A DNA stretch of 40,867 bases, taken from assembly GCA_034190605.1 (NCBI GenBank), contig JAXINT010000063.1, positions 1 through 40,867 of the forward strand, read 5' to 3'. The position numbers and the translations under genes were made by a program. This document shows positions 1 to 40,867 of this stretch, one piece after another. The notes under the pieces were generated by a model. That model was not told the origin of the DNA. It saw nothing but the letters and a program-made list of their open reading frames with translations, and did not search any database. Each line of letters begins with the position of its first letter. The stretch's first letter is position 1. This DNA comes from Candidatus Asbonarchaeaceae archaeon. Its GTDB lineage: Archaea > Nanohalarchaeota > Nanosalinia > Nanosalinales > Nanoanaerosalinaceae.

Positions 1-45
1 GCTCCCTGCATGTGCGTGCTGGTCGTATCCGTCTCTCTCTTTATG
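1..45. repeat. Left copy of imperfect terminal direct repeat
   Basis: Bases 1-45 match 40823-40867 at 43 of 45 positions (mismatches at repeat positions 14 and 33). Both copies lie in the same minus-strand reading frame (..IKR[E/D]TDTTST[H/N]MQGA..). Confidence 0.9.
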
Positions 46-13562: not shown

Positions 13563-14090
13563 CTAAAAACGGTTCCGCCAACCTTCAGTTCCGAGAACAG
13601 CGTCCTTGTAGTTCGCAGCGAGCTCCCGTGCAGCACGCTTTGACAAGTCCTCAGAATCCTCTAGGTCGGAAACCGCTTCAGAAAAACTGCCGCCGACCGA
13701 CTCCCAGAAATCAAGTAAATCCCTTCTACTCCAGTCTTCAGGCTTATTACCTGCGTTCTCGTTGCTGACTGCTGCCAGGGCGCTGCCTGTCGTGTTACCG
13801 CCTTTCTTCAAGGTGGTGTTTTTGAGGTCGGCTCCGCGGTAGACGGCGCTTCTACCTCCGAAACCTACGACATAAACAGTTTCACCGTCCGAGACCTCGA
13901 TCTTTTTGTCGTCGCCTTCCTGCGGAAAAGTAAACGAAGAGCCTTTCTGAGCGATAATCACTCCTGTTCCGGAAGGTGTGGCAACCACGTCTCCGCTGTC
14001 GAAGTCGCTGGTGCGAGCTCTCAACTCCTCGATGGATTCTATTATAGCCGAGCGAAGCTCCAGTTTAGCTTGTTTCACCATTTTCACCAT
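13563..14090 (-). CDS. Hypothetical head-morphogenesis-position protein (~175 aa)
   Basis: ORF between portal and protease. The start is uncertain (ATGs at 14090 or 14081, overlapping the portal end). The upstream part of the track ORF lies inside the portal gene. Confidence 0.55.
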   Translation of the reverse strand: MVKMVKQAKLELRSAIIESIEELRARTSDFDSGDVVATPSGTGVIIAQKGSSFTFPQEGDDKKIEVSDGETVYVVGFGGRSAVYRGADLKNTTLKKGGNTTGSALAAVSNENAGNKPEDWSRRDLLDFWESVGGSFSEAVSDLEDSEDLSKRAARELAANYKDAVLGTEGWRNRF

Positions 14091-15660: not shown

Positions 15661-17259
15661 CTAGGCTATTTCGACAATCCCTGTCTCTTTTTCGAGGTCT
15701 GAAAACTCTTCCTCGTCTTCGTTTAGATCGATTTCCTCGGCTTCTTCACTGATAAGTGACAAAGTACCCTGTACTCCTTCAGTGTCCTCGTAGGCGTGCC
15801 AGGCTATCGCCAAACTCATAACGATGTCGTCCTTATCCTTGCCTTCCAGCTTGCCGCTCTTCGACCTGTGGAAGTTCCTCATCTCCTCCATCAAGTCTTC
15901 GTCGTCGTGAAGCACAAGGTCGCCTCTGTCCAGCGCGGCCTGAAGCTGCGAAAGGATCGTCGGCCGTGTCTTCCTAGTAGTGTCGAACGCTTCTATACGG
16001 CCTGAAGTCTGTATCTGCTTGTCGATGGTCTTCCAGGTTCCGGTTCCTATAGCGTTTTTCTCGATGTAGCCGTAGTTGAAACGGTACTTCCTGTCGAGAG
16101 ACATGACTTTCTTCGCTATCTCGGCCGGGCCCATACCCTGCTTCCTGATCTTGTTCGAGTACCACGCCCTTTTATCAGGGTCGATACCGAGAACCGTGAA
16201 AACTGTGTAGTCAGCTTCTTTCTTGTCGCTCATAGCGATGTCGACGCCGAGATACCAGTTCCAATCGCTGTATTCTTCCTTGTTAGGGTTTGCTAGGTAG
16301 TGTGATTCGCCGATATTGGTGTCGAGGTTCGGCTGCACCATTTCTTCCTTGAAGAACCGTTCGTCGACGCTCATCGGGTTGCACATGTACTCGCGTGCGA
16401 ACCTGCTGCTTCCGATCTCGGCTTTTTTCGCCATCAAGCCGTCGTAATCCCATTTGAACGGCCACAGCGGTTCCTCTGTCTCAGGGTCGTAGGCCTGGAA
16501 ACGCCGCGTATAATAGTTGTCTTTCTCCATCAACTCCATCATCAGGTCGTCGTGTTTCTGCGGAGTTCCGACGATCTGAAGTGTTCCGCGGCTGTTCTCC
16601 GCAATCGGAGATATTACGTTGTAGAAAAGGTCTTTCTCCTGTTCTGTTGACTTGCTCCCGGCGGAGTCGTCGGTGAGGAGGTCGTCGCAGAAAACGTAGT
16701 CAACGTGCTTCGACCTGATGCTTGGCGAGAACGTCTTCGTCTTCACTCTGACATCGGTTGTTGTGTGGATGCTTTCGCGGGCCCAGACGGTCTCCGTGGA
16801 GTCGATGTCAAGCATTTCCTCGTTTTCGCTGACGTAGTCACTGTCCGGTTCTAAATGCTTCAGGACGTCGTTCCTGATGATGATACGCTTGATGTTCTCC
16901 AGAATATCAGTAGACTGGCCCTGAGAGGCGGCCACGATCAGTATTTCTTTGCTGGTCTCCTTGAAGCATCGCCAGAGCGTCTGCCCGACCGTAAGAGTGA
17001 ACGTCTTTGAGTGGCCTCTCGGCGCCATAAACGCGATTTTTGTAGCATTATTTTCCGGTTGCTCCGGCGGGTTCTGTATCACGTCGATAGCTTCCTGGAT
17101 CAACGGGCTGTCGACGTTGTAACCTAGAATGTGTTCTAGGAAGAACTCGTAGTTCTTCACCGCTAAGGCTTTGATGGTTTCTTTGTCGTCGATTCCGCAG
17201 CTTTCCTTGATCTCCTCCCATGTTCGTTCTTCGTCGAACTGCTGCGAGTCGGAGCCCAT
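15661..17259 (-). CDS. terL: Terminase large subunit (532 aa)
   Basis: Walker-A-like 'FMAPRGHSKT', Walker-B-like 'VDYVFCDDLLTDD', and a C-terminal RNaseH-like nuclease segment ('YLGVDIAMS..ADYTVF'). Lies upstream of the portal. Confidence 0.85.
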   Translation of the reverse strand: MGSDSQQFDEERTWEEIKESCGIDDKETIKALAVKNYEFFLEHILGYNVDSPLIQEAIDVIQNPPEQPENNATKIAFMAPRGHSKTFTLTVGQTLWRCFKETSKEILIVAASQGQSTDILENIKRIIIRNDVLKHLEPDSDYVSENEEMLDIDSTETVWARESIHTTTDVRVKTKTFSPSIRSKHVDYVFCDDLLTDDSAGSKSTEQEKDLFYNVISPIAENSRGTLQIVGTPQKHDDLMMELMEKDNYYTRRFQAYDPETEEPLWPFKWDYDGLMAKKAEIGSSRFAREYMCNPMSVDERFFKEEMVQPNLDTNIGESHYLANPNKEEYSDWNWYLGVDIAMSDKKEADYTVFTVLGIDPDKRAWYSNKIRKQGMGPAEIAKKVMSLDRKYRFNYGYIEKNAIGTGTWKTIDKQIQTSGRIEAFDTTRKTRPTILSQLQAALDRGDLVLHDDEDLMEEMRNFHRSKSGKLEGKDKDDIVMSLAIAWHAYEDTEGVQGTLSLISEEAEEIDLNEDEEEFSDLEKETGIVEIA

Positions 17260-19541: not shown

Positions 19542-19955
19542 TTACTCGCTCACCTCGCGGCCGCACATAGGGCAGAGGCCTGACTCAGTCGGTTGGTACT
19601 CCGTGACTTCGAGGTCGCATGCAGGGCACGCGTCTTTTACTCTGTAGTCTTGGCTGTACTTTTCCAAGGCTGCGGCCAGGTCTTTGTATCTGAGCTCTGC
19701 GGCTGTGCCATCGTACGCGGTACACAATACCTTAAGGAATGTGAGCTTGCTTTCTGCGTCCATTTTGTGAATGTGTCTTCCGTGTTTGAAGCGTTCGGCC
19801 CAGGTCAGTGCGTAACCGTCATCTGCTTCGGGGAATCTTTCGGCCATGAAAGCTGCGTAGCGGTCGCGTTGTAGTGCTGACCCGCTCGCATCGGCCTTGT
19901 TGTAGATTTTTCGGAACTTTTGGCGTGTTTCGTGGTCTTGTTGTGGTTCTGTCAT
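19542..19955 (-). CDS. Hypothetical protein with a C-terminal zinc ribbon (137 aa)
   Basis: 'CPACDLEVTEYQPTESGLCPMCG' forms a CxxC...CxxC ribbon. It is the first gene downstream of a class-2 promoter cassette. Confidence 0.6.
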   Translation of the reverse strand: MTEPQQDHETRQKFRKIYNKADASGSALQRDRYAAFMAERFPEADDGYALTWAERFKHGRHIHKMDAESKLTFLKVLCTAYDGTAAELRYKDLAAALEKYSQDYRVKDACPACDLEVTEYQPTESGLCPMCGREVSE

Positions 19956-19998
19956 CTTATCGACCTATAGACGTTAACGTCTCGAAGCCTTTTAAGTG
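19956..19998 (-). promoter_or_regulatory. Class-2 promoter/leader cassette (copy a)
   Basis: Coding strand: CACTTAAAAGGCTTCGAGACGTTAACGTCTATAGGTCGATAAG-ATG. It contains a TATA box, the perfect palindrome GACGTTAACGTC (19970-19981) and the TATAGGTCGATA leader. Confidence 0.6.
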
Positions 19999-22225: not shown

Positions 22226-22267
22226 GCTATCGACCTATAGACGTTTTTGTCCTCAACCTTTATGTAC
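22226..22267 (-). promoter_or_regulatory. Class-2 promoter/leader cassette (copy b)
   Basis: Coding strand: ACATAAAGGTTGAGGACAAAAACGTCTATAGGTCGATAGC-ATG. Confidence 0.6.
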
Positions 22268-23541: not shown

Positions 23542-23585
23542 GTTATCGACCTATAGACATGTTCGTCCTTAAACCTTAAATACCT
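23542..23585 (-). promoter_or_regulatory. Class-2 promoter/leader cassette (copy c)
   Basis: Coding strand: GTCGATAGGTATTTAAGGTTTAAGGACGAACATGTCTATAGGTCGATAAC-ATG. Confidence 0.6.
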
Positions 23586-25967: not shown

Positions 25968-26011
25968 GTTTATCTCCTTATGGACATATTCGTCTTTAAC
26001 CTTTTTATACC
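25968..26011 (-). promoter_or_regulatory. Class-2 promoter/leader cassette (copy d)
   Basis: Coding strand: GTCGATAGGTATAAAAAGGTTAAAGACGAATATGTCCATAAGGAGATAAAC-ATG. Here the leader carries an AAGGAG SD. Confidence 0.6.
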
Positions 26012-30021: not shown

Positions 30022-30332
30022 ATCTCCAGGGCGAGCTCTACCTCTGTGTAAGCATCCGTGTCGTAGTTTCCGGTGTCGTAGATGTGCTGGCTCTGCTTCT
30101 CGACGAAGCCGAGCTCTTCAAGGCCTTCGAGTACACGCCTAGCGTAGCTTTCCGCTACTCCGTTCCACGGCTCTAGTATATCCTGTCCAGTTTCCTGAGC
30201 TATCTCTCTAGGCGAAGTATGAATCCGTGTTTCAAGTATAGCGTCTCCGACCTCTTCATGGTAGCTGTTCAGGAAGCCGTAGGTTCGTTCGTCGTCGTGC
30301 TTCATGTCGAGAACTTCTATAGCTGTCTTCAT
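30018..30332 (-). CDS. Hypothetical protein (104 aa), possible winged helix
   Basis: Complete ORF coupled on both sides. 'SYARRVLEGLEELGFVEKQ' looks like a wHTH. Confidence 0.5.
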   Translation of the reverse strand: MKTAIEVLDMKHDDERTYGFLNSYHEEVGDAILETRIHTSPREIAQETGQDILEPWNGVAESYARRVLEGLEELGFVEKQSQHIYDTGNYDTDAYTEVELALEM

Positions 30333-31414
30333 GCTCTCTCACCGTCACCCTCCAGCATTTTGGAGATGTCGTCGCTTGAAAGGTCGGATTCACCTTCTAT
30401 CGGATACATGACGCGGTTGGTCTGCCAGCTTCGGATGTCGCCATCCTCGACTTCCATGTCTACGATCCAGCCTCCGGCCTTCGGTTTGATTCCTTTACGT
30501 TCTAGGAAAGGTGTCGGGCCTTGCCATGCTCCGGCGTAGAGCACCTGGCTTCCCTCCGTCTCGGCGTTCAAGAATTGGTGGAGGTGCCCGAAGACAGTGA
30601 TGTCGGCTTTCTGCTCGTCTGGTTTGTCTCGCAGCCACGTCTGGGCTCGATAGCCTAGTGTATATGGTGCGCCTCCTGATGGATGAACTAAATCCATGTC
30701 GACTTCGCCGAGGTCGATGTTGGCGTAGGAGTCTCCCAGGAAATGCAGGTCGTCTCTTTCGGCGTCTAGCTGCTCTCCGAATCTTATTCCTGTGTTTTTG
30801 AAGAGCTGGTGGTCGTGGTTTCCTTCGATGAACAGGGTGTCGATGCCGTCTCGCTCCGGATAGTTTTCTACCACGTAGTTCTTGAGGCGATCCCAGCCGA
30901 TTGCTTCTGGCTGTAAATGGTTGCTGTGGCCTCTGTAGACGCCTCTACCGTTATTTTTGACTGTTCCGTCGCTGATGTCTCCTGCGTGGAAGACTACGTC
31001 TATGTCTTCGTCCTCAAGTCTGTCGTAGAAATCGTTAAGCGAGTCAAGCTGCTCTCCTGTGGAGCCGAGGTGTGTATCTGATATTACTGCGAAGTTGTAG
31101 TGGCCGTCTTCGTTGACCCAGCGCCAAGTGTCGTCGACCTCGTCCTCGATTTGATACATTTTCGTGCCGTATTGGTCAACTGTTTTCTCGGAGATGTCTC
31201 TTCCGGTGGCGCGGAGCTCTTCTACCACTGATCTGGCTTTGTCGCGGCTCCAGTCGTATTCTTCGGAGAAATCGTCATACGTCATTCCAGATTTTAGGTC
31301 ATCTACAAGTCCGTCTGGTATTTCATCGTCAGGCATAGAGTGGTGCCCTAGAAAAAGGTTTCGACGGGCTGCACTTAAAAGGTCAGGCATGTTCGTTTTG
31401 ACGCTTGTGTTCAA
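30329..31414 (-). CDS. Calcineurin-like metallophosphoesterase resembling the PolD small subunit (DP1) / B-subunit family (361 aa)
   Basis: Phosphoesterase motifs 'VISDTHLGS', 'HAGDISDGT..GRGVY', 'IEGNHD', 'VFGHLH'. The C-terminal 'YAGAWQGPTPFLERKGIKPKAGGWIVDME' matches the DP1 pattern 'N.gtWQ.qT.FQk..ni.P.P..v.vvd'. The start may lie at an internal Met. Confidence 0.55.
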   Translation of the reverse strand: MNTSVKTNMPDLLSAARRNLFLGHHSMPDDEIPDGLVDDLKSGMTYDDFSEEYDWSRDKARSVVEELRATGRDISEKTVDQYGTKMYQIEDEVDDTWRWVNEDGHYNFAVISDTHLGSTGEQLDSLNDFYDRLEDEDIDVVFHAGDISDGTVKNNGRGVYRGHSNHLQPEAIGWDRLKNYVVENYPERDGIDTLFIEGNHDHQLFKNTGIRFGEQLDAERDDLHFLGDSYANIDLGEVDMDLVHPSGGAPYTLGYRAQTWLRDKPDEQKADITVFGHLHQFLNAETEGSQVLYAGAWQGPTPFLERKGIKPKAGGWIVDMEVEDGDIRSWQTNRVMYPIEGESDLSSDDISKMLEGDGERA

Positions 31415-32126
31415 CCCACCGATGTCTCAGCCTGTTGTAAACCTCTGTCTTGTTCTCTCCACCGGTTTCCTGTCTGACACTGTTTTCGTCGGCTCTGAGA
31501 CCCTGGTGCTCGACTTCTGCGTCTTCGACGTGTTTGATGTCGTAGCCTGCTGAGTCGGCTCTCCATCCGAACTCGGCGCCTTCTCCCACCTGGTGCCGCT
31601 GGTCGAACAACGGGTGTAGGCCGCCGAGCTTGAAGAACAGTTTACGCGGTATGGATATGTTGGCCGTCCACATCAGTCTGGGTGTGTCTGTTGCGGCGTG
31701 TACTGGGTGTCGGTCGCCTTTTTCACCGGTTTCCGGGTCTATGAACTGTATAGGGCCGAACATCGGTTTGCTTGGCTCGAAGGCGTTCCAGTATGCTTCT
31801 AGCCAGCCTTTTTCGGGTATGCAGTCGTCGTCGAGGAAGATTAATTGGTCGTAGTGGCTGGCTCCTGCGGCGACGTTCCGCAGCATGGAGGGTCGGAAGT
31901 GTTTGTGAGGTATATGGATGACTTCGAGGTTCGATATGGCGAATTCAGGTAGTTCGTAGCCTGAGCCGTCGACTACTACGAAGACCTCGAACTTGTCTCC
32001 GATTCCTGCTCGGCCTGCTTCCTCGATGACTTTGTTGAGGGTTTCTTTCACCATTTCTTCTCTGTTGCGGGTCGGTATTACGACTGTGACGCCGCGTTCT
32101 CCGGATGCGAACGGTTCCTCAGTCAT
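31383..32126 (-). CDS. Family-2 glycosyltransferase (247 aa)
   Basis: 'TVVIPTRNREEMVKETLNKV', 'VVVDGSG' and 'RPSMLRNVAAGASHYDQLIFLDDDCIP' (DxD) are classic GT2 signatures. Confidence 0.7.
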   Translation of the reverse strand: MTEEPFASGERGVTVVIPTRNREEMVKETLNKVIEEAGRAGIGDKFEVFVVVDGSGYELPEFAISNLEVIHIPHKHFRPSMLRNVAAGASHYDQLIFLDDDCIPEKGWLEAYWNAFEPSKPMFGPIQFIDPETGEKGDRHPVHAATDTPRLMWTANISIPRKLFFKLGGLHPLFDQRHQVGEGAEFGWRADSAGYDIKHVEDAEVEHQGLRADENSVRQETGGENKTEVYNRLRHRWVEHKRQNEHA

Positions 32127-33166
32127 ATATAACCCATTTCCTCAAGTTTCTGTTTTATTTCTTCTTCGTCGCCTCTGACTTGGCTGTCTGGCCGTTCTTC
32201 TCCGATCCAATCGTCGTCAAAGCCTAGTTGGCAGCTAATTTGAAAAGCTACGTCCTGAGTCTTGAGTTTTTGTCTCTTTGGCTCTACAGTTAGTGAGTCA
32301 GGGGCAAAGCTGGATATGAAAACTCCTTTGCGGTCGTGCCGTTTCTCGTGCATCTGAAACCCGTGGTCGGAGACAATAATCCAGTGCTCGGGCTTTAAGT
32401 TCTCTATAAGGTATCTGCATGTCTCACCCATTTCCTTGTAGATTTCCCGTGTGTACGGGCCTTCAGGTTGTAGGCCTTCGACGTGTCCGGCTTTGTCGAC
32501 TCCGTGAGTTCCGAACCATGCTACGTCAGGGCTTTCTTTCCGCGCCATAGCTGTGAACTGGCCGCATTTATCCTGTTCTATCTCGCAGGCTCTTTCGATT
32601 ACTTCTTGTATTTCTTCTTCAGTCATGTTCTGGCCCCAGGGTGCGAGGCTGCGGATGTCGTCTCTCGGAAGCTCGTCTTTTATCTGGATTATGTTTCTAG
32701 GTATTTCGGCGAACTTCTTCACTGACTCGGTTCTATGATTGGCGTGAGGGCCGACATGGTAGGTCTCTGAAGTGCCAAGTGGTGAAGGGAACCCGCTTAT
32801 TGACCACCCGTTTCCGATCTGAGGAGCTGGATACGTAACTGGCATAGAATAGATTGCTTGCCGTAGCCCTTCCTCGTCGATCTTCTCGAAGATTGTCTTC
32901 TTCTGGATGTTCGAGTAGTCGAGATGCTCTTTTTTCCAGCCGTGAGAGGTTATACCGTGTTCTTCCGGCATGACGCCTGTGTACATGCTGCTCCATTCGA
33001 CGCCTGTATGTGGTGTTCCGTGTTCGTCGATGCTGTGCAGCGTCTCTTTGTAGGCTTCTCCGTTTTCGATTTGTTGGAAGAGCCAGTTCCAGGTGTCATA
33101 GTCTTCGAGGTATTGGTCGAAGAACTCGCTGGAGAAGGCGTCAATACCGATTACTAGCAACTTCAT
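32123..33166 (-). CDS. Alkaline-phosphatase-superfamily enzyme (type I phosphodiesterase / nucleotide pyrophosphatase-like, 347 aa)
   Basis: 'MKLLVIGIDAFSSEF', 'GTPHTGVEWSSMYTGVMPEEHGI' (nucleophile Thr region) and 'IIVSDHGF' match the PF01663-type pattern as I remember it. Confidence 0.6.
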   Translation of the reverse strand: MKLLVIGIDAFSSEFFDQYLEDYDTWNWLFQQIENGEAYKETLHSIDEHGTPHTGVEWSSMYTGVMPEEHGITSHGWKKEHLDYSNIQKKTIFEKIDEEGLRQAIYSMPVTYPAPQIGNGWSISGFPSPLGTSETYHVGPHANHRTESVKKFAEIPRNIIQIKDELPRDDIRSLAPWGQNMTEEEIQEVIERACEIEQDKCGQFTAMARKESPDVAWFGTHGVDKAGHVEGLQPEGPYTREIYKEMGETCRYLIENLKPEHWIIVSDHGFQMHEKRHDRKGVFISSFAPDSLTVEPKRQKLKTQDVAFQISCQLGFDDDWIGEERPDSQVRGDEEEIKQKLEEMGYI

Positions 33167-33724: not shown

Positions 33725-34072
33725 TCAGTAACCCAGCTTCTTCCTTTGTGGATCGACCTCGCAGTGGCACTCCTTGCAGAGAACTACTAGGTCGCATCCC
33801 GCCTCGAAATCCTCTAAATTGGCGTAGAAGGCCTGCCAGCCACCGAGTTTTCTTTTAGGGTCTCCGCCGCCGTTTTCGTGGTGCAGCTCTAGCTCGTTCC
33901 ACCGTTTTATTTCCAGGCAGCGCTCACACCACAAAAGTTTATCGAGAAGAAGTCCGTGAAGCCTCGGCAACCTGTCAGTGTTACTTCGTAATACTCTGTA
34001 GAGCAGCCATTTTCTCCTGTCTTCGTAGTACGGTATCGTGCTCGGCTGCGTCATGGTTTGTGCCTCTGACAT
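33725..34072 (-). CDS. HNH endonuclease (115 aa)
   Basis: 'CERCLEIKRWNELELHHENGGG...VVLCKECHCEV' shows a CxxC...HH..N...CxxCH HNH/zinc architecture. Confidence 0.75.
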   Translation of the reverse strand: MSEAQTMTQPSTIPYYEDRRKWLLYRVLRSNTDRLPRLHGLLLDKLLWCERCLEIKRWNELELHHENGGGDPKRKLGGWQAFYANLEDFEAGCDLVVLCKECHCEVDPQRKKLGY

Positions 34073-34077
34073 GTGGA

Positions 34078-34261
34078 TGCGCCCGCCAGGATTTGAACCT
34101 GGGTCTCCAACGCTTCTCGGCTACCGGCGCTTTTTTATCGCGCTACGGCTCGCCTGTACGACCCCGCCGAGGCAACACCGCGTGCCTAGGAGCTTTCGCC
34201 CCCCATTACCTCGATTGTCGATGGATCTGCGTAGCGTCGTTGGCCGCTGGACTACGGGCGC
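34078..34261 (-). tRNA. tRNA-like gene carrying about 100 nt of extra sequence (putative intron(s)); anticodon unresolved
   Basis: On the minus strand: a perfect 7-bp acceptor stem GCGCCCG (34261-34255) / CGGGCGC (34085-34079); UA; a D-arm GUC-CAGCGGCCAAC-GAC; a T-arm CCAGG-UUCAAAU-CCUGG (34102-34086); discriminator A. A 6-bp helix GCUACG/CGUAGC encloses 82 nt where the anticodon arm should be, and 40 nt separate it from the T-arm. I could not find a canonical U33 loop or a bulge-helix-bulge motif. Confidence 0.5.
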
Positions 34262-34435
34262 AAGAGTATGTAACGGGGTACCACGCCTCTCGGCTGCACT
34301 CCCCGTGGCGTTTTACGAGGATGCCAAGCTCGCTCATCGAAGGCCCGACCGCCTGTCGTTCCCGGCTGGGTCTGCGGTACGGTCGTTTAACCCGTTTCGA
34401 GTACCTTCGATAGAGAGATAGAAGCGAGAGGAGGG
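34262..34435 (-). ncRNA. GC-rich structured segment upstream of the tRNA-like gene (leader or separate small RNA)
   Basis: No plausible ORF. Stems seen by eye: TCGAAGG..CCTTCGA (long range), GGTACTCG..CGAcCGTACC, ACGGGG..CCCCGT, CGCC..GGCG. GC content is clearly above that of the flanking genes. Confidence 0.35.
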
Positions 34436-35056
34436 TTACTCCTCTGCCTCTGGGTCTTCCTCAAGGTTGACGACCTTGGCGACAGTCGAATACTCATCTT
34501 TCTCAGGATTGTCGCGGTTACTGTTCCTGACTTCGTACTCGATTCTCATGCCGACCAAGTTCTCCCTGAGATAGTTGGCGAAGTCCTTGTTCTGCTGCTC
34601 GTTACTGTCTTCAGGGTCAACAGGGCTGACTTCTTCGCCGTGCCGATCTTTCAGGACGACGTCTGTGTCGCCTGAAGGCTCGGCCAGACCTAGCTTCTTC
34701 AAGGTGTCGTACAGCTTCGAGTTGCTGTACTCGCTTGAAGCACCTCTCGTGATCTTCGCAGTGAGGAAGAAAGGCAGCTCGATCTTGTCTGTCGGTACGT
34801 CTTCATCTCTGCGTTCGTTCTCTTCTTCCAAGTATTCCTGTAGAGCTTCCTTGTCTTCGTCGCTGATGTCTAGGTCGTCGATCTCTGATCGGACGTCAAT
34901 CCTGATCTGCTCTTTCTTGCCGTCACCCTGGTACTCATCGACTTCGCGGACTTCTCCGACGTTAGCGATGGTTCCTTTGTGTCGGCTTTCGTGGCCTAGA
35001 TCGACTCTGATGGGTTCTTGGTTGTCGAATCCAATTTGAACCATGTAGTTGTTCAC
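34436..35056 (-). CDS. Hypothetical acidic protein (206 aa)
   Basis: Complete ATG ORF downstream of the zinc-ribbon and TFB-like genes. I recognise no motif. Confidence 0.6.
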   Translation of the reverse strand: MNNYMVQIGFDNQEPIRVDLGHESRHKGTIANVGEVREVDEYQGDGKKEQIRIDVRSEIDDLDISDEDKEALQEYLEEENERRDEDVPTDKIELPFFLTAKITRGASSEYSNSKLYDTLKKLGLAEPSGDTDVVLKDRHGEEVSPVDPEDSNEQQNKDFANYLRENLVGMRIEYEVRNSNRDNPEKDEYSTVAKVVNLEEDPEAEE

Positions 35057-35061
35057 CTCCG

Positions 35062-35382
35062 TTAGTTAGACACGCTGAACGGCTTTCTGCCAGAGTTGGC
35101 TTGTTCGCCGCTTTCGGTGCCGTCTTCTGATTTTGAAAAAGAGTATTCTACTATAGTATCGTTTTCTAGGTTGTCTTTGTCCTTCATTTCGTGGAGCTGG
35201 AGTTCGTCGCAGTTATCGCACCAAGTGAAGCATAGGTCTTGAACCTTCTTCGGTGTGAATATGACGTTTTCAGGGTTGTTCTCCATCGAGTCTATCAGTG
35301 ATTCGACGTCGATGGCTCTGCCGCACTGTGGGCATACCATGGCTTTGTCGCCGTAGTTTTGTCGTAGTCCGTCTAACTTCAT
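35062..35382 (-). CDS. Zinc-ribbon protein (106 aa)
   Basis: 'CPQCGRAIDV...CFTWCDNCDEL'. ATGA-type overlap with the TFB-like gene upstream. Confidence 0.6.
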   Translation of the reverse strand: MKLDGLRQNYGDKAMVCPQCGRAIDVESLIDSMENNPENVIFTPKKVQDLCFTWCDNCDELQLHEMKDKDNLENDTIVEYSFSKSEDGTESGEQANSGRKPFSVSN

Positions 35383-36050
35383 TCTCTCCCTCTTAAGACC
35401 TGATTTGTGTCAGTCATAAACTCTTTTCCAAGTAGTTGCTCAAAGTCTTCGATGTTATCTCTAATTACCACTGGAGTAGTCCCGATAGAATTAGCCACTT
35501 CTTTTTGAGTGCGCACATGCCTGATCGCAGAATTATGCTCCTGTCCGGCATAAATAGATGCTAGATACACTATTGCAGCTGCCCTGCCGGAATTTGGTCT
35601 TGCATGCTCCGGAGTTTCTCCGGACTCAATCAGTTTGGCGAGAGATTTTGCCTTCCTTTCCACTTTGGGAGGTGTTGTGTAGGGATAAAGTGTGTCTAGG
35701 CACCTTGTAACCCACGGATTCAGACCGATTTCAGTGTAATTTATCTCTTCTTTCTCTATAGAACGGAATATCTTTTTGGCGGTTCTGTTGGTAGTTTGAG
35801 GCGCCACACGAAATATTTCGGCGATTTCCGACGGCTTCACAGGGTGGTTTAAGTTCTTAATAACTAAAAGTAGGCTGCCGGATGCTAAAGCTTCTATGCC
35901 GTCGTTTTTCGACACTTCCGCTTCGTCTATCAGCTCCTCTGTTTTCTCTACCACGAAATCAAAATCGGCGTTGTCGCTTTTTTCCACGTATTTTTCTACT
36001 ATGGTTCCGGATATGCAGTTTTTTATGATTCTCTGTGTTCTCATCCTCAT
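35379..36050 (-). CDS. tfb: TFB (TFIIB)-like transcription factor core with two cyclin-fold repeats and no N-terminal zinc ribbon (223 aa)
   Basis: Repeat 1: 'ALASGSLLLVIKNLNHPVKPSEIAEIFRVAPQTTNRTAKKIF'. Repeat 2: 'NPWVTRCLDTL...SGRAAAIVYLASIYAGQ...RTQKEVANSIGTTPVVIRDNIEDF'. These match the TFB core pattern (..P.dyv.Rf...L...sGrsP..vAAAaiYiAs.....TQkevA.vagVTevTiRnryke). Confidence 0.65.
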   Translation of the reverse strand: MRMRTQRIIKNCISGTIVEKYVEKSDNADFDFVVEKTEELIDEAEVSKNDGIEALASGSLLLVIKNLNHPVKPSEIAEIFRVAPQTTNRTAKKIFRSIEKEEINYTEIGLNPWVTRCLDTLYPYTTPPKVERKAKSLAKLIESGETPEHARPNSGRAAAIVYLASIYAGQEHNSAIRHVRTQKEVANSIGTTPVVIRDNIEDFEQLLGKEFMTDTNQVLRGRE

Positions 36051-36093
36051 CCCATCGACCTATTGACTTATTCGTCTGGAAGTCTTTTATATC
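36051..36093 (-). promoter_or_regulatory. Class-2 promoter/leader cassette (copy e)
   Basis: Coding strand: ATCGAAGGATATAAAAGACTTCCAGACGAATAAGTCAATAGGTCGATGGG-ATG. Confidence 0.6.
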
Positions 36094-36104
36094 CTTCGAT
36101 GATT

Positions 36105-37049
36105 TCACTCCGCTACAACACTCTCAAACTTCTCACCACCGTTCTCAGCCGCTATATCATGCCAGTACGGGTAATAGCCGCCCTCAACCTTTACGATGAC
36201 ATCCGCCTTCAACAAGATATTCAGCTTCATCGACAGGCTTCGAGCATCAGTCTCCAAGTCCTCTGTAGTCGATCCTGGCTCCTCTCTAATCTGTTCGTAC
36301 AGCTTTCGCTCCTCGTCAGGCAGGTAATGGACACGGCTAGGCAACGTCATCTCGTCCAAGTCCACACTACTGCTCCACGACCCTACTATCATCTCGAAGA
36401 TATGCCGTGCCGACTCGTAATCCTTCTCACGTACCTCGAACTCGTCACGATCCTCGATCAACGTATTAGCCTTCGCCAAGCCAGCAACTACATTCTGGAT
36501 GTGGTGGTCGTAGCGACCTTCATAAAGCCGTACGAAGTCCGCAGGAACCATGCGCTTCACATCATCGTGAATCTGCTCCACACGGTCATAGTCAACATCT
36601 ACACGTATATCCTCTCGCAGAGTGTCGACCAGGGAGACGAAGTCAGCGTCGAAGTCTGGGAACGCGTCTTCCTCGTTTTCGTACTCCTTCTTCACCTTCT
36701 TCTTGTTGTCGTTGATGTACTCGATGTGGCTGTCAAGCTGGTCGTAAAGGATGCAACGCCCCATGAAAGCAGGGTCGAGCTTCTCAACCGCCTGCATCAT
36801 GTTCTTGATGCCGTAACTAGGGTTGCCTGTCGCCATCATGTTACCCTGCATCTGGCCTCTGATACTGCCGTTACCGGAGCTGAAAGTCCTGTCCTTGTGC
36901 TCAAGTAGTTCAAGCAGCGGTCTGAACACGTCCTGCTGCGTCTGGTTATTGTTTTTAGTCGAGTTCTGAAGCAAGTTCATAAACTCGTCGACCAGCGCCA
37001 ACCTCTGAGATTCTAGGAGGTGGCCTTCGTTCGGCCTTAAAACTCGGTG
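36105..37049 (-). CDS. mcm: MCM-like AAA+ helicase, C-terminal part (Walker B, sensor, Arg finger, winged helix) in the +1 frame
   Basis: This frame is open from 37049. 'RPNEGHLLESQRLALVDEF' parallels MCM '..GE..LEAGALVLAD.G...IDEFDK'. 'LLELLEHKDRTFSSGNGSI..QMQGNMMATGNPSYG' parallels 'alhEaMEQQtisiaKAGi...L.ar.svlAAaNP..GrY'. 'LDPAFMGRCIL' parallels 'SRFDL'. The track start at 37001 is a TTG inside the Walker B strand. Confidence 0.65.
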   Translation of the reverse strand, partial: HRVLRPNEGHLLESQRLALVDEFMNLLQNSTKNNNQTQQDVFRPLLELLEHKDRTFSSGNGSIRGQMQGNMMATGNPSYGIKNMMQAVEKLDPAFMGRCILYDQLDSHIEYINDNKKKVKKEYENEEDAFPDFDADFVSLVDTLREDIRVDVDYDRVEQIHDDVKRMVPADFVRLYEGRYDHHIQNVVAGLAKANTLIEDRDEFEVREKDYESARHIFEMIVGSWSSSVDLDEMTLPSRVHYLPDEERKLYEQIREEPGSTTEDLETDARSLSMKLNILLKADVIVKVEGGYYPYWHDIAAENGGEKFESVVAE

Positions 37050-38115
37050 TCAAACCTTTCACAGTCGAGCCTGTACCTGAGTAGATGCCCGCCGGACAGT
37101 CCATAGCCTTGTTAAGTCCTTGAAGCCAGAAGCTCTTTCCGGTCGATGTAGGGCCGAACCAGAAAAGGTGGGAAGGCCAGCCAAAATCCTCATTCACGAA
37201 AATAAGAGCTTGCGTCAGTCTCTCGAACCATGTAGGATGTCTGAAACCGCCGTGCAGCTTCTCTGCAAGGTAGTCATGGTCAGCTTTCTCCTTCCAGGCG
37301 TCGAGCTCTTCCTCCGGAATCTTCGTGATCGCGGGCTCGACGTCCTTCACAAAGATTACATCCTGATTTGTCGGTAGCGTCCGGTTCTCTCCGATCTCTG
37401 TCCGGTCGTTGATCTTGAAGTGGGTGCCTGTGATACGGCAACGCATCGGAGACAGCTTTTCACGGCTGAACAGCAGGTATTCGACGTTCTCCTGCTTGAA
37501 CTTGTAGACGAAGAAGCCTTCTGTATGCGCTTCTTTGACGTTGTAGCCTTTGTTGGGCACGCTCTGGCCGAAGTGGCGGTAGTGGAGCTCGCCGTTCGAG
37601 TCTTCGTAAACTTTGAAGACCTCGAATTTCTGCCGTGTATCGGATAATTCGACGCTGATACGGCCGTTCCACTGTTTCTGGGCTGATACGACGAAAAGTT
37701 TCTTGCCGTACGTGTCGTAGATGTCTTCTTCGAGTTCCCAGAGGTCGTCTATACGGACGCTTTTGTCGGTGTAGGCGATAGCTTCCTGCCCGTCAAGGCT
37801 CTTCGCTTTCAGCTTGAGGGCTTGGTACGTGGATTTCGGTATGTCGCCGATTAAGTCTTCGTCGTCGGTTTCTAGGACGTCTTCTTCGTCCATGGTTTCG
37901 ACGAAGTCTCTCATTTCTTTGAGCTGGATGTCGAGCTCTTCTTCTTTTTCCTCTATGAAGTCGCCGAGCTCTCCCCAGTCTTCGCTTGATACTATGCCGT
38001 AGAGACGTTCTTCGACTTTGTCGAGGCTTTCTGCGTAGCCTTCGATGTGTGCTACACTGCTTCTGTAGCTTTGGACGAGGAAGTTGAGCATTTCCTTGTC
38101 GAAGTCCTCGGCCAA
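36955..38115 (-). CDS. mcm: MCM-like AAA+ helicase, N-terminal part (OB-like domain plus Walker A)
   Basis: 'LFWFGPTSTGKSFWLQGL' is a Walker A motif. 'YSGTGSTVKGLTPSF' parallels MCM 'y.sGkGsSaAGLTAAV'. After that point this frame gives a non-homologous Arg/Pro tail, and the continuation is in the overlapping frame. Confidence 0.65.
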   Translation of the reverse strand: MAEDFDKEMLNFLVQSYRSSVAHIEGYAESLDKVEERLYGIVSSEDWGELGDFIEEKEEELDIQLKEMRDFVETMDEEDVLETDDEDLIGDIPKSTYQALKLKAKSLDGQEAIAYTDKSVRIDDLWELEEDIYDTYGKKLFVVSAQKQWNGRISVELSDTRQKFEVFKVYEDSNGELHYRHFGQSVPNKGYNVKEAHTEGFFVYKFKQENVEYLLFSREKLSPMRCRITGTHFKINDRTEIGENRTLPTNQDVIFVKDVEPAITKIPEEELDAWKEKADHDYLAEKLHGGFRHPTWFERLTQALIFVNEDFGWPSHLFWFGPTSTGKSFWLQGLNKAMDCPAGIYSGTGSTVKGLTPSFKAERRPPPRISEVGAGRRVYELASELD

Positions 38116-39060: not shown

Positions 39061-39198
39061 CTATGGGAAGCACGCTGGCACAAATAGCTCTCTGTATAGG
39101 CTGGTTGCGAAATTTTCTAGGCCGAGGCCTATTGCTATACCTGTGAAAAAAATTGCTGTGGCTGCTGCGCCAGTCTTCCAGTCAAATTCTGTGGACAT
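39061..39198 (-). CDS. Mini membrane protein (45 aa, 1 TM segment)
   Basis: Product is MSTEFDWKTGAAATAIFFTGIAIGLGLENFATSLYRELFVPACFP. A cassette-type promoter sits 23 nt upstream. It is below the track's size cutoff. Confidence 0.4.
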   Translation of the reverse strand: MSTEFDWKTGAAATAIFFTGIAIGLGLENFATSLYRELFVPACFP

Positions 39199-39231
39199 AT
39201 TCGTCTATTTGTCCTCAAGGCTATATTAAAG
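39199..39231 (-). promoter_or_regulatory. Class-2 promoter cassette (copy i) overlapping the fibre stop codon
   Basis: Coding strand: GTCGAAACTTTAATATAGCCTTGAGGACAAATAGACGAAT-ATG. GACGAATATGTC spans the start codon. Confidence 0.45.
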
Positions 39232-40867
39232 TTTCGACTCCACAAACACCTTCGAGAACAACGAACCATTCAAACGGCACCTAGACAAACCGAGCTTCAC
39301 ATTATCAGTCCAGTGAACCATACTCGAACTTGTGCCACCAAGACTAGCACCGTTCTGGTTATCCACAGTCACGCGCGAAACTTGGTTCGTGCTGTTCAGA
39401 GGGAAAGGCCCGTACGTCCTAGTCTCGTCAGAGTCGCTGTCATACCAGTCGACCGTAAACGTGTTCTTCGCATTATTCAACCGGACAGTGAACTTCCTCC
39501 AAACCTGGTAATTCTTGCTCCAAGGCATAGGCCCAGCGTTACCGCCGTACTCAAAACCGTTACCGCTGAAAATCTGGAGCTCAGGGTTGTCAACACCGAC
39601 GAAGAGTAGTCTTTTACCGTTCGCATCCTTCAGGCTCATACCTCCACCCGTACTGTTTGAAGTCTCACGGTACCAGAACGAGAACTCCTCCACGTCCGTA
39701 TCTGCCGAAAGATTGTGGTAGGCCTGAGTGCCGTCGCTGACGTTCGACCCTCCACTGTCATGCAAGAAGCTGACGCTTCCATTCTGAGCGTAAGCCGTAT
39801 CAGCCTCTCCTTTCAGATCAGACGTGTCAGTCCAGTTTGTAGGGTAGCTTCCATCGGAAAGACCCTCGAAGCTGTCCTTGAACGTGTTACCTACAGGCTT
39901 CAGTTCGAGTTCGTGCCAGCTTCCGGCAACAGGGTCGGATAAGTAGGTCTTCAAGTCTATCTTCGAGCTCGTACCTAACACACCTAGATCAGTGATCCTT
40001 GTAACCTTGCTGCCGTCCACGAACACGTCTACATCCACTTTCGGCTCCGTATCAGGAGAGAATAGGCCGTAAGCTGGTTCCCCTGAATTACTTGACGACT
40101 CCGAAACCGTGTTCCCTAGAGCTGTAGTGGAGGTCTCTGTAGTTCCTAGAGCGCTTGTTGAAGTGTCTGAGATTGAGACGTCGTGCGTGTGCTGTCCGAC
40201 CTGCAAGATGTTAAGTGAAACCGTCATGTCTTCAGCTTCATCACTGTTGTTGTCGAGTGTAGCTGAAATCTGGTCGTTGTCGAGTATGGCTGTCTCTCGG
40301 AACTGTACAGTTACAGGGCCTTTCTCACTACCAGCGATTATATCAGTATCACTGTATAATGTGGTTCCCTCGTCGTCGTTGGTAACGGTCAAATCCCATC
40401 CGTTCGTCGACGAAGTGGAGTTGGTAGTATAAATGGTGACAGTTATTAGTGCGTAGTCTTGGCTAAATGTTACATCTAGATTTGACCGGCTTATTGTCGT
40501 GGTGAGGCTTCCTCCAGAAGAGATAAATCCATAGTCGTTGGATGTTGCCCAGTTCGTTGAGACGTCGGACGCAGTTGAGGTCGTGCTGTCAGATACGTCG
40601 TGACTGTGTGACGGATGGGTTACATCGTGACTGTGTGACGGGTGGGTTACATCTACTGTGTGGCTGTGAGGCTCATTCCTGACATAACCTCTGAACTCAT
40701 CTCTCGACAGATTAAGCTCCAATTTGTTCACAGCTACAGCATCTTCAGGGACGTAGAACTGCGTTGTCAGTGGGTGGTCGTCATCCGCGTTATCGACAAA
40801 GTTCTGCGAGTCGATGTTCGTAGCTCCCTGCATGTTCGTGCTGGTCGTATCCGTATCTCTCTTTATG
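39226..40867 (-). CDS. Tail fibre C-terminal part: HxH-repeat shaft and beta-sandwich (ConA/LamG-like) tip; reading frame open at the right window edge
   Basis: The frame has no stop between 40867 and the TAA at 39228..39226. The track start (ATG 40833) is an internal Met of the sequence repeated at bases 1-45. HxH motifs: 'HSHTVDVTHPSHSHDVTHPSHSHDV' and 'GQHTHDV'. The C-terminal ~200 aa ('EEFSFWYRETSNSTGGGMSLKDANGKRLLFVGV...WRKFTVRLNNAKNTFTVDWYD') look like a jelly-roll lectin. Confidence 0.75.
   Translation of the reverse strand, partial: IKRDTDTTSTNMQGATNIDSQNFVDNADDDHPLTTQFYVPEDAVAVNKLELNLSRDEFRGYVRNEPHSHTVDVTHPSHSHDVTHPSHSHDVSDSTTSTASDVSTNWATSNDYGFISSGGSLTTTISRSNLDVTFSQDYALITVTIYTTNSTSSTNGWDLTVTNDDEGTTLYSDTDIIAGSEKGPVTVQFRETAILDNDQISATLDNNSDEAEDMTVSLNILQVGQHTHDVSISDTSTSALGTTETSTTALGNTVSESSSNSGEPAYGLFSPDTEPKVDVDVFVDGSKVTRITDLGVLGTSSKIDLKTYLSDPVAGSWHELELKPVGNTFKDSFEGLSDGSYPTNWTDTSDLKGEADTAYAQNGSVSFLHDSGGSNVSDGTQAYHNLSADTDVEEFSFWYRETSNSTGGGMSLKDANGKRLLFVGVDNPELQIFSGNGFEYGGNAGPMPWSKNYQVWRKFTVRLNNAKNTFTVDWYDSDSDETRTYGPFPLNSTNQVSRVTVDNQNGASLGGTSSSMVHWTDNVKLGLSRCRLNGSLFSKVFVESKL
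40595..40675 (-). repeat. Three tandem 27-bp repeats encoding HxH(xH) motifs
   Basis: acgtcgtgactgtgtgacggatgggtt / acatcgtgactgtgtgacgggtgggtt / acatctactgtgtggctgtgaggctca. The translated units are HSHDVTHPS-type. Confidence 0.85.
40823..40867. repeat. Right copy of imperfect terminal direct repeat
   Basis: 43/45 identical to bases 1-45, and in the same reading frame on the minus strand. Confidence 0.9.

What the first reader, a model, noticed from the sequence alone, without database searches (positions are those of the whole stretch)
35062..36050. Virus-encoded TFB (TFIIB)-like core domain without a zinc ribbon, followed by a separate zinc-ribbon ORF
The 223-aa product has two cyclin-fold-like repeats. 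The second ends in a TFB-style HTH ('RTQKEVANSIGTTPVVIRDNIEDF'), which in cellular TFB reads the BRE. The N-terminal zinc ribbon and B-reader that contact RNA polymerase are missing. The next, translationally coupled ORF (35062..35382) carries CxxC...CxxC motifs. A viral TFB paralog could redirect host RNAP/TBP to the virus-specific promoter class, whose BRE position holds GTCGAWA, or could act as a decoy. A split TFB (core plus ribbon as two polypeptides) would be unusual.
Basis: partly seen in the sequence, partly recalled or inferred. Interest (0 to 1): 0.7.

Follow-up and report, generated by a model that had tools for sequence, protein, structure and literature searches.

The report
Ribbon-less TFB core in archaeal virus
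A tailed virus of salt-loving archaea carries a cut-down copy of the host's basal transcription factor TFB that keeps the promoter-binding half but lacks the half that recruits RNA polymerase, so it most likely blocks or re-tunes transcription rather than starting it.

Summary
ORF1 (35379-36050, minus strand, 223 aa) is a real but very divergent homolog of the archaeal TFB / eukaryotic TFIIB core: two cyclin repeats ending in the BRE-reading HTH. Support: NCBIfam TFB E=6e-8; hhalign 96%, E=3e-9; 39.5 bits against at most 9.4 for 2000 shuffles; Foldseek top hit Pyrococcus TFBc.

The Zn ribbon, B-reader and B-linker are absent. An in-frame stop lies 10 nt upstream of the ATG, and no ORF in the genome matches the TFB N-terminal half.

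The contig is a complete-looking archaeal tailed-virus genome from a hypersaline MAG.

The "split TFB" idea is not supported. ORF2 is a generic CxxC...CxxC protein that does not match the TFIIB ribbon. In the only related contig, ORF2 and the next gene are conserved but the TFB-like gene is not upstream.

GTCGAWA at the "BRE position" contains the canonical haloarchaeal BRE (CGAAA). ORF1 is itself driven by that repeated promoter cassette.

Full-length viral TFBs are already known, and all four examined here have the ribbon. Engineered TFBΔN is dominant-negative in Sulfolobus. Best reading: a natural TFBΔN that competes with host TFB. This is a new variant of a known kind, and the protein is a database singleton.

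The parts
36053..36100 (-). Promoter cassette in front of ORF1. It has a BRE-like ATCGAAG (36100-36094), the TATA box TATAAAAG (36091-36084), and a conserved 24-mer GACGAATAAGTCAATAGGTCGATG (36076-36053) ending 2 nt before the ATG.
   Evidence: The 24-mer core occurs 5 times with at most 3 mismatches, against 0 expected. Alignment with four other cassettes shows the same register of BRE, TATA, core and ATG. The sequence was read.
35379..36050 (-). ORF1, 223 aa: a TFB/TFIIB core-only homolog with two cyclin repeats and no Zn ribbon, B-reader or B-linker.
35751..36050 (-). Cyclin repeat 1 (about residues 1-100; model helices 2-22, 30-43, 52-66, 73-80, 84-97). The TFB-invariant GRS loop is replaced by N49-D50-G51. 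The position of TFIIB's TBP-contact Arg is K65.
   Evidence: AF2 secondary structure, alignment and conservation table, and human TFIIB alignment.
35427..35729 (-). Cyclin repeat 2 (about residues 108-208; model helices 111-121, 128-143, 153-171, 182-189, 193-207). This is the better conserved half.
   Evidence: (PF00382 partial match, residues 127-172).
35442..35510 (-). C-terminal HTH (residues 181-203, TQKEVANSIGTTPVVIRDNIEDF). It is equivalent to the BRE-recognition HTH of TFB/TFIIB, and T181, Q182, V194, I196 and R197 are identical to TFB invariants.
   Evidence: Pfam HTH_Crp_2 E=1e-3 over residues 173-204.
35379..35382 (-). ATGA overlap between the ORF1 stop codon and the ORF2 start codon.
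35062..35382 (-). ORF2, 106 aa: a small acidic Cys-rich protein (C17-x2-C20 ... C51-x3-C55-x2-C58) with a variable acidic linker and a conserved C-terminal tail. It is not a TFIIB-type ribbon.
34436..35056 (-). Acidic ORFan of 206 aa (202 aa if it starts at ATG 35044, which has a GGAGGTG Shine-Dalgarno-like sequence upstream). It is the conserved downstream partner of ORF2 and probably shares a transcript with it.
   Evidence: L001 carries ORF2 and this gene at 88-92% nucleotide identity. No family hits.

Best explanation
ORF1 is a virus-encoded, naturally N-terminally truncated paralog of archaeal transcription factor B, that is, a TFB core only.

Shown:
- It is homologous to the TFB/TFIIB core over both cyclin repeats.
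- It keeps the residues of the BRE-reading HTH.
- It lacks the Zn ribbon, B-reader and B-linker.
- It has its own BRE/TATA promoter cassette and heads a short operon with ORF2 and the 206-aa gene.
- It sits in the non-structural part of a tailed-virus genome.

Inferred:
- Like engineered TFB-deltaN proteins, it binds the TBP-bent BRE/TATA region of promoters.
- It cannot dock RNA polymerase or help open the DNA.
- It therefore competes with full-length host TFB.
- The outcome would be host transcription shut-off, or timed damping of promoters with a strong BRE, possibly including the virus's own cassette promoters.

The altered first-repeat loop (GRS to NDG) suggests its contact with DNA downstream of the TATA box has changed. 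This may bias which promoters it occupies.

ORF2 is a separate small zinc-binding protein of unknown role that belongs with the downstream gene.
For: Homology and architecture:
- Searches support the TFB-core assignment.
- The truncation is genuine. There is an in-frame stop at 36062-36060, and the promoter cassette ends 2 nt before the ATG in the same register as four other cassettes.
- No TFB N-terminal half exists anywhere in the six-frame translation (best E=0.21).
- HTH residues are kept.
- The position of the conserved TFIIB Arg that pairs with TBP's stirrup glutamate is a Lys, K65.
- The cassette's BRE position holds a near-canonical haloarchaeal BRE, so a TFB-type HTH has a plausible target.

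Functional precedent:
- The four archaeal-virus TFBs examined here (HRTV-DL1, YNP1, YNP2, ARV3) all retain the ribbon. Loss of the ribbon is therefore specific to this gene, not a general feature of viral TFBs.
Against: - Nothing functional was tested.
- The protein is a singleton: no homolog closer than 29-39% identity exists among about 15 billion proteins. Purifying selection therefore cannot be assessed.
- Only 33 of 74 strongly conserved TFB-core positions are kept.
- The GRS loop is lost. It aligns with human G153/R154, which contact BREd (PMC4529316).
- The position of the conserved Thr/Ser TBP contact is a Lys, K72. TBP and DNA binding could be weakened or lost.
- The AF2 model was built from an alignment of TFBs, so it is not an independent test. 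Only 1 of 5 models reached pLDDT 70.
- Host and host TBP are unknown.
- A virus that depends on host TBP/TFB for its own promoters would also inhibit itself unless the effect is timed or selective.
Confidence: 0.5

Rival explanations
1. Split TFB. ORF1 (core) and ORF2 (ribbon) assemble into a two-polypeptide TFB that recruits host RNAP to viral promoters.
For: The genes are adjacent and overlap by ATGA. ORF2 has two Cys pairs, and its N-terminal CPQCG resembles the first knuckle of the TFB ribbon.
Against: - ORF2 has no PF08271 hit at E<=10.
- hhalign gives 9% probability.
- ORF2's score lies within its shuffle distribution.
- The spacing between Cys pairs is 34 residues, against about 14 in TFBs.
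- There is no B-reader or B-linker anywhere in the genome.
- In L001, ORF2 and the next gene are conserved behind an unrelated upstream gene.
- The ORF2 model was unusable, pLDDT 48.
Confidence: 0.06
2. Positive promoter-specificity factor. ORF1 binds TBP-DNA at the viral cassette promoters and stimulates initiation. It could do this by stabilising TBP or by working with host TFB/TFE or another viral adaptor, in the way Sulfolobus TFB3 acts in trans.
For: - There is a repeated virus-specific cassette with conserved sequence downstream of the TATA box.
- ORF1's DNA-contact loop in repeat 1 is altered.
- Authors of other viral TFBs propose RNAP recruitment (PMC10544981).
- Another cassette-driven ORF (19542-19955) ends in CPAC-x14-CPMCG, which is ribbon-like spacing.
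Against: - ORF1 and a full-length TFB would occupy the same TBP/BRE surface, so they should compete, not cooperate.
- The ribbon-like ORF is not significant against the TFB N-terminal HMM (E=0.21).
- There is no precedent for activation by a TFB core alone.
Confidence: 0.15
3. Exapted DNA-binding or protein-binding regulator. The cyclin/HTH scaffold is used without TBP, either as an ordinary repressor on a viral operator such as the GTCKATA repeats, or as a cyclin-like binder of another host protein.
For: - More than half of the conserved TFB positions are lost, including the GRS loop and the PRS motif.
- The HTH also scores with generic HTH families (HTH_Crp_2, MarR_2).
- GTCGAWA-like words flank the TATA box and the start site in the cassettes, as operator sites would.
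Against: The best conserved residues are exactly those of the TFB HTH and the repeat-2 core. The nearest structural neighbours are TFB/TFIIB in TBP-DNA complexes, and cyclins rank lower.
Confidence: 0.2
4. Non-functional remnant. ORF1 is a decaying fragment of a captured cellular TFB gene, or an assembly artefact of a MAG contig.
For: - It is a singleton.
- It is strongly diverged.
- The neighbouring ATPase gene looks frameshifted, so the contig may contain errors or pseudogenes.
- ORF1 is absent from the one related contig.
Against: - The 223-codon ORF is intact and starts precisely at the domain boundary.
- It has its own complete promoter cassette in the correct register.
- It overlaps the next gene's start codon.
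- The predicted fold is complete, with 5+5 helices.
Confidence: 0.09

Closest known systems
Cellular archaeal TFB (NCBIfam NF001658; Pfam PF08271 + 2x PF00382). The nearest is P0002, with its clade P0003-P0005, from hypersaline metagenomes.
   Same: Both have two cyclin repeats and the C-terminal BRE-reading HTH. Identity is 29-39% over residues 45-203. ORF1 shares a short extension after the HTH with the P0002 clade.
   Different: ORF1 lacks about 125 N-terminal residues: the Zn ribbon, B-reader and B-linker. It keeps only 33 of 74 conserved core positions. GRS has become NDG and PRS has become PVK.
Virus-encoded full-length TFB homologs: Halorubrum tailed virus DL1 ORF43, Sulfolobales viruses YNP1 and YNP2, rudiviruses ARV3, SSRV1 and MRV1, Asgard wyrdviruses, and Tebi-SV1 VP3.
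   Same: All are TFB-family genes carried by archaeal viruses, none functionally characterised. HRTV-DL1 is also a haloarchaeal tailed virus.
   Different: All four checked here have the Pfam TFIIB zinc ribbon plus both repeats. ORF1 shows no detectable pairwise similarity to HRTV-DL1 ORF43, which implies an independent acquisition. Published proposals for those proteins are RNAP recruitment, which ORF1 cannot do by the known route.
Engineered N-terminally truncated TFB/TFIIB: TFBc as used for the crystal structures 1AIS and 1D3U, and Sulfolobus TFB2-deltaN.
   Same: The domain content is the same (core only). Foldseek's top hit is the P. woesei TFBc chain from the TBP-DNA complex. TFB2-deltaN binds promoters, cannot recruit RNAP, and is dominant-negative in vivo.
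   Different: Those proteins are laboratory constructs with unaltered core sequences. ORF1 is a natural gene with a strongly diverged core.
Sulfolobus TFB3
   Same: It is a naturally truncated TFB paralog that acts as a regulator, not as a general factor (literature titles; details from established knowledge).
   Different: The truncation is the opposite one. TFB3 keeps the N-terminal ribbon region and lacks the DNA/TBP-binding core.
Short TFIIB-like proteins of giant viruses (e.g. Tupanvirus 223 aa, Pithovirus 193-246 aa, Cedratvirus 186 aa).
   Same: They are virus-encoded, consist mainly of TFIIB cyclin repeats, and are of similar length. They are structural matches at Foldseek E of 1e-4 to 3e-2.
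   Different: They belong to viruses of eukaryotes that bring their own RNA polymerase and often their own TBP (PMC7221094). Identity to ORF1 is only 10-18%. Whether they have ribbons was not examined here.

Membership tests
TFB/TFIIB family (core domain) | Two tandem cyclin-fold repeats homologous to PF00382 / NF001658 | tested here: met
   NF001658 E=6.3e-8 over residues 49-205. hhalign 96.2%, E=2.7e-9. TFB-core HMM 39.5 bits against at most 9.4 for shuffles. AF2 model with 5+5 helices, and Foldseek top 25 all TFB/TFIIB/Brf. Pfam PF00382 alone is below threshold: E=0.005, 17.3 bits against a cut-off of 23.6.
TFB/TFIIB family (core domain) | C-terminal HTH with the BRE-contacting Val/Arg of the recognition helix (human V283/R286; numbering from my own knowledge) | tested here: met
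   V194, I196 and R197, plus T181 and Q182, are identical to columns invariant in 24 TFBs. Human VTIR aligns with VVIR. Actual DNA binding was not tested.
TFB/TFIIB family (core domain) | Conserved Arg and Thr of repeat 1 that pair with the two TBP stirrup glutamates (PMC7221094) | tested here: inconclusive
   The aligned positions are K65 (Arg to Lys) and K72 (Thr/Ser to Lys). Positive charge is kept, but the residues differ. The identification of these as human R169 and T176 rests on my own knowledge.
TFB/TFIIB family (core domain) | Gly-Arg recognition loop of repeat 1 that contacts DNA downstream of the TATA box (human G153/R154, BREd) | tested here: not met
   The TFB-invariant G174-R175-S176 (P0002 numbering) aligns with N49-D50-G51. 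The loop's function is taken from PMC4529316.
Full-length general transcription factor TFB | N-terminal TFIIB-type zinc ribbon (PF08271) that docks on RNAP | tested here: not met
   ORF1 starts at repeat 1 and has only two Cys, at positions 12 and 117. There is a stop codon upstream. No six-frame hit to the TFB N-terminal HMM.
Full-length general transcription factor TFB | B-reader and B-linker needed for start-site selection and DNA opening | tested here: not met
   There are no aligned residues for P0002 positions 55-124, and none elsewhere in the genome.
Split TFB (ORF2 as the detached TFIIB ribbon) | ORF2 is homologous to the TFIIB zinc ribbon | tested here: not met
   No PF08271 hit at E<=10. 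hhalign probability 9%. 4.2 bits, rank 57 of 2001 among shuffles. Cys-pair spacing of 34 against about 14 residues.
Split TFB (ORF2 as the detached TFIIB ribbon) | Conserved co-occurrence of the two genes | tested here: not met
   L001 has ORF2 and the downstream gene at 88-92% nucleotide identity, but an unrelated gene upstream. The homology breakpoint lies at the ORF2 ATG. This rests on a single comparison contig.
Split TFB (ORF2 as the detached TFIIB ribbon) | Physical interaction of ORF1 with ORF2, and of ORF2 with RNAP | not testable with these tools
   No complex prediction is available. The ORF2 monomer model had pLDDT 48.
Archaeal tailed virus (Caudoviricetes) | HK97-type capsid protein, portal and large terminase on the same molecule | tested here: met
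   Portal E=1.2e-20, Terminase_6C E=1.3e-10, Phage_capsid_4 E=4.5e-10. The contig ends overlap by 45 nt. The acidic proteome fits a halophile.

The most novel reading that the evidence does not exclude
The virus runs a bipartite initiation factor. In this reading the ribbon-less TFB core, with its altered downstream-DNA loop, selects the virus's own promoter cassettes together with host TBP. A separate small viral zinc-ribbon protein would then supply the RNA-polymerase contact. Candidates are ORF2, or the cassette-driven 137-aa ORF at 19542-19955 with CPxC-x14-CPxCG. This would be a split TFB that reprograms host RNAP in the manner of a phage sigma factor.
Probability: 0.07. Interest if true: 0.85.

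Novelty: new variant of a known kind. Interest (0 to 1): 0.55.

Why it matters
Archaeal viruses depend entirely on host RNA polymerase, and very few viral factors that act on the basal machinery are known. ATV RIP is the main example.

TFB homologs have been noted in several archaeal viruses, but none has been studied, and those checked here are full-length. A natural core-only TFB would be a ready-made competitive inhibitor of TBP/TFB promoter complexes. That is a new way for a virus to shut off or time transcription.

It would also be a useful probe of how much of TFB's promoter selectivity lies in the core. It shows that viruses can capture and trim general transcription factors as well as specific regulators.

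Its value is limited because it is a single sequence from a MAG with no identified host.

Tried and rejected
- Nucleotide search of the region against 50,697 phage records found no match. tblastn of ORF1 found only a spurious portal-protein fragment.
- The word-indexed protein search for ORF1 returned only itself.
- IMG/VR scans with ORF1 and with the 206-aa gene found nothing. The terminase found one 53%-identical contig fragment that gives no context for this region.
- A metagenome scan with the 202-aa gene found nothing.
- The cassette 20-mer found nothing in IMG/VR and one chance hit, L010, with no other similarity to the window.
- Two genome-collection scans failed to name the organism of the P0002/P0005 TFB clade. 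LKMJ turned out to be an unbinned soda-lake metagenome. Cluster look-up gave no names. The host therefore remains unresolved.
- The ORF2 structure prediction was too poor to use, so I ran no fold search on it.
- Rfam found nothing in the window, and there are no tRNAs.
- A conceptual fusion of the 386-aa and 298-aa ORFs gave no Pfam or PDB match. The MCM-like impression is unverified.
- No TBP or second TFB was found among the ORFs scanned.
- I considered and rejected reading GTCGAWA as a virus-specific BRE, because it contains the canonical CGAAA.
Full report
**What the window is.** The 40,867-bp window is a whole contig deposited as part of a MAG labelled Candidatus Nanohaloarchaea. The ORF1 product is MDY6788845.1, locus tag SVV03_02670. 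Nearly all genes lie on the minus strand. The contig encodes a portal (14065-15588), a large terminase (15661-17259) and an HK97-type major capsid protein (11127-11996). Its proteome is strongly acidic. Its first 45 nt repeat its last 45 nt with 2 mismatches. It is therefore best read as a complete or nearly complete genome of an archaeal tailed virus from a hypersaline habitat. It has no nucleotide match among 50,697 phage records and almost no relatives in IMG/VR. Whether the host is a nanohaloarchaeon or a haloarchaeon could not be settled.

**Checking the observation.** ORF1 (35379-36050, minus strand, 223 aa) and ORF2 (35062-35382, minus strand, 106 aa) exist and overlap by ATGA.
- Pfam alone gives only sub-threshold hints for ORF1: TFIIB repeat E=0.005 and HTH_Crp_2 E=1e-3.
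- NCBIfam's archaeal TFB model matches residues 49-205 to profile positions 163-304 of 312, at E=6.3e-8.
- The best PDB sequence hits are all TFIIB core domains.
- An exhaustive HMMER scan of 1.84 billion representative proteins returned, apart from the protein itself, one sequence: P0002, a canonical 348-aa TFB with ribbon, at E=3.8e-4 for the whole library.
- BLASTP against P0002 gives E=4e-13.
- hhalign of ORF1 against 24 TFBs gives 96.2% probability and E=2.7e-9 over residues 45-208.
- An HMM of the TFB core scores ORF1 at 39.5 bits, while 2000 shuffles reach at most 9.4 bits.
- An AF2 model built with the TFB alignment has pLDDT 70.5 and pTM 0.54, with five plus five helices and a short C-terminal helix.
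- Foldseek's top 25 PDB matches for that model are all TFB/TFIIB/Brf, led by the Pyrococcus woesei TFB core from the TBP-DNA complex (1ais_B, E=5.6e-6). Cyclins come only lower down the list.
- The model is not independent of the alignment, and only one of five models was confident, so I treat it as corroboration only.
T181, Q182, V194, I196 and R197 are identical to TFB-invariant columns.

**The truncation is real.**
- In the alignment, ORF1 begins where cyclin repeat 1 begins. About 125 residues of TFB (ribbon, B-reader, B-linker) have no counterpart.
- An in-frame TAG lies at 36062-36060.
- The 54-nt gap to the upstream gene is filled by a promoter cassette whose conserved core ends 2 nt before the ATG. 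This is the same register as in four other copies. It also favours ATG 36050 as the start, not the second ATG used in the deposited annotation.
- An HMM of the TFB N-terminal half finds nothing in the six-frame translation of the whole genome (best E=0.21). The core HMM finds only ORF1.
- No TBP was seen among the ORFs scanned.

**How diverged the core is.** ORF1 keeps 33 of the 74 core columns that are at least 90% conserved in TFBs, and retention is better in repeat 2.
- The invariant GRS loop of repeat 1 is N49-D50-G51. The equivalent human residues, G153 and R154, contact the promoter downstream of the TATA box (PMC4529316).
- The positions aligned with the conserved Arg and Thr that pair with TBP's two stirrup glutamates (PMC7221094) are K65 and K72. 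The residue numbering for human TFIIB rests on my own knowledge.
- The BRE-reading surface therefore looks intact, the TBP contact is uncertain, and the downstream-DNA contact has changed.

**ORF2 and the split-TFB idea.** ORF2 has Cys at positions 17, 20, 51, 55 and 58. It draws only weak generic zinc-finger hits.
- It has no hit to the TFIIB ribbon family.
- hhalign against TFBs gives 9% probability, covering only the CPxCG knuckle.
- Its score against the TFB N-terminal HMM falls inside its own shuffle distribution.
- Its Cys pairs are 34 residues apart, against about 14 in TFBs.
- Its structure prediction was unusable.
- ORF2 has one homolog, P0123, on a 1.8-kb contig, L001. There, 88-92% nucleotide identity to the window begins exactly at the ORF2 start codon and continues through the 206-aa gene. 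The gene upstream is unrelated to ORF1 and also overlaps the ORF2 start.
- ORF2 therefore belongs with the downstream gene. The TFB-core gene, with its own promoter, behaves as a separable accessory unit. This rests on a single comparison contig, but together with the profile tests it makes a split TFB unlikely.

**The promoter claim.** A repeated cassette is real. It consists of GTCGAWA, a TATA box, and then a conserved 24-mer (GACGAAnATGTCYATAGGTCGATA) just before the ATG. The 24-mer occurs five times, against none expected by chance, and one copy lies in front of ORF1. However, GTCGAAA contains CGAAA, the published haloarchaeal BRE consensus (PMC2151090, PMC4983044). The BRE position is therefore host-like. 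The virus-specific part is the sequence between the TATA box and the start codon.

**Mechanism.** A core-only TFB has the parts that bind TBP-bent BRE/TATA DNA. It lacks every part known to dock RNAP and open the DNA. An engineered TFB2-deltaN in Sulfolobus is described as promoter-binding, unable to recruit RNAP, and dominant-negative in vivo (bioRxiv 10.64898/2026.09.06.749720). The most likely function is therefore competitive occupation of promoters against host TFB. That would give host shut-off or timed damping, possibly with altered promoter preference because of the changed repeat-1 loop. This step is inferred, not shown. The rivals are:
- a positive specificity factor using another adaptor;
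- a TBP-independent regulator built on the same scaffold;
- a decaying gene fragment;
- the split TFB.

**Comparison with what is known.** TFB homologs are already recorded in several archaeal viruses:
- rudiviruses;
- Asgard wyrdviruses;
- Halorubrum tailed virus DL1, where the protein was found in virions and proposed to recruit RNAP (PMC10544981);
- Tebi-SV1;
- Sulfolobales viruses YNP1 and YNP2.

The four I could examine all have the TFIIB zinc ribbon plus both repeats. ORF1 has no detectable pairwise similarity to the HRTV-DL1 protein and is closest to a clade of cellular-looking TFBs from hypersaline metagenomes. This suggests a separate capture from a cell followed by loss of the N-terminus. 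Short TFIIB-like proteins also occur in giant viruses, but those viruses carry their own polymerase. I found no description of a natural ribbon-less TFB in an archaeal virus in the searchable literature. That is an absence of evidence within this library only.

**Verdict.** This is a new variant of a known kind. Interest is moderate (0.55), limited by singleton status and an unknown host.

Noticed in passing
window 19958-19981, 22228-22251, 23544-23567, 25971-25994, 36053-36076 (all minus strand), with upstream TATA boxes and GTCGAWA words: A promoter cassette of about 60 nt is repeated in front of at least five minus-strand genes. It runs GTCGAWA (contains the canonical BRE CGAAA), 2-3 nt, TATA box, then GACGAAnATGTCYATAGGTCGATA ending 2 nt before the ATG. 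GTCKATA-like words recur at the BRE position and twice around the predicted start site, which resembles operator sites for a virus regulator. A looser copy lies near 39170-39240.
   Followed up: partly
window 1-45 and 40823-40867: The contig ends repeat each other (45 nt, 2 mismatches). This suggests a circular or terminally redundant complete genome of about 40.8 kb. The mismatches may reflect population variants or an assembly artefact.
   Followed up: partly
window 36105-38115 (minus strand): The 386-aa ORF (Walker A GPTSTGKS, then GIYSGTGSTVKGLTPS) and the overlapping 298-aa ORF look like one AAA+ ATPase of about 670 aa, MCM-like in motif order, interrupted by a frameshift near 37030. The second ORF's frame reads EGHLLESQRLALVDEF, which is Walker-B-like. 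A conceptual fusion gave no Pfam or PDB hit, so this is unverified.
   Followed up: partly
window 19542-19955 (minus strand): This cassette-driven 137-aa ORF ends in CPAC-x14-CPMCG. That zinc-ribbon spacing matches the TFB ribbon better than ORF2's does. It was the best but non-significant hit (E=0.21) of the TFB N-terminal HMM.
   Followed up: partly
window 34073-34435: A stretch of about 360 nt has no convincing minus-strand ORF. It lies between the 206-aa gene and an HNH-like ORF (33725-34072). Its 34073-34149 end is 83% identical in L001. There is no Rfam hit.
   Followed up: no
window 30329-33166 (minus strand): A cluster of a metallophosphoesterase, a family-2 glycosyltransferase and a type I phosphodiesterase/nucleotide pyrophosphatase, plus a second GT2-like ORF at 10019-10657 next to the capsid genes. 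This may be a virion or host-surface glycan modification module.
   Followed up: no
L002 5549-8314 (soda-lake metagenome contig LKMJ01000260.1): A 921-aa protein with TFIIB zinc-ribbon and TFIIB-repeat hits lies two genes upstream of the P0005 TFB, in a cellular-looking context. This is unusually large for a TFB-family protein.
   Followed up: no
BFVD hit R4TG19 (Haloarcula hispanica tailed virus 2, 94 aa): A small halovirus protein matches about half of the ORF1 model (target-normalised TM 0.66, 26% identity, E=0.27). It may be a single cyclin/HTH-like module in another haloarchaeal tailed virus. The match is not significant.
   Followed up: no
window 35062-35382 and P0123: ORF2 and its homolog are nearly identical over residues 1-66 and over the last 20 or so residues (GEQANSGRKPFSVSN). 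They differ by a 31-residue acidic insertion in the linker. This suggests a zinc module plus a conserved C-terminal peptide motif joined by a disordered spacer.
   Followed up: no
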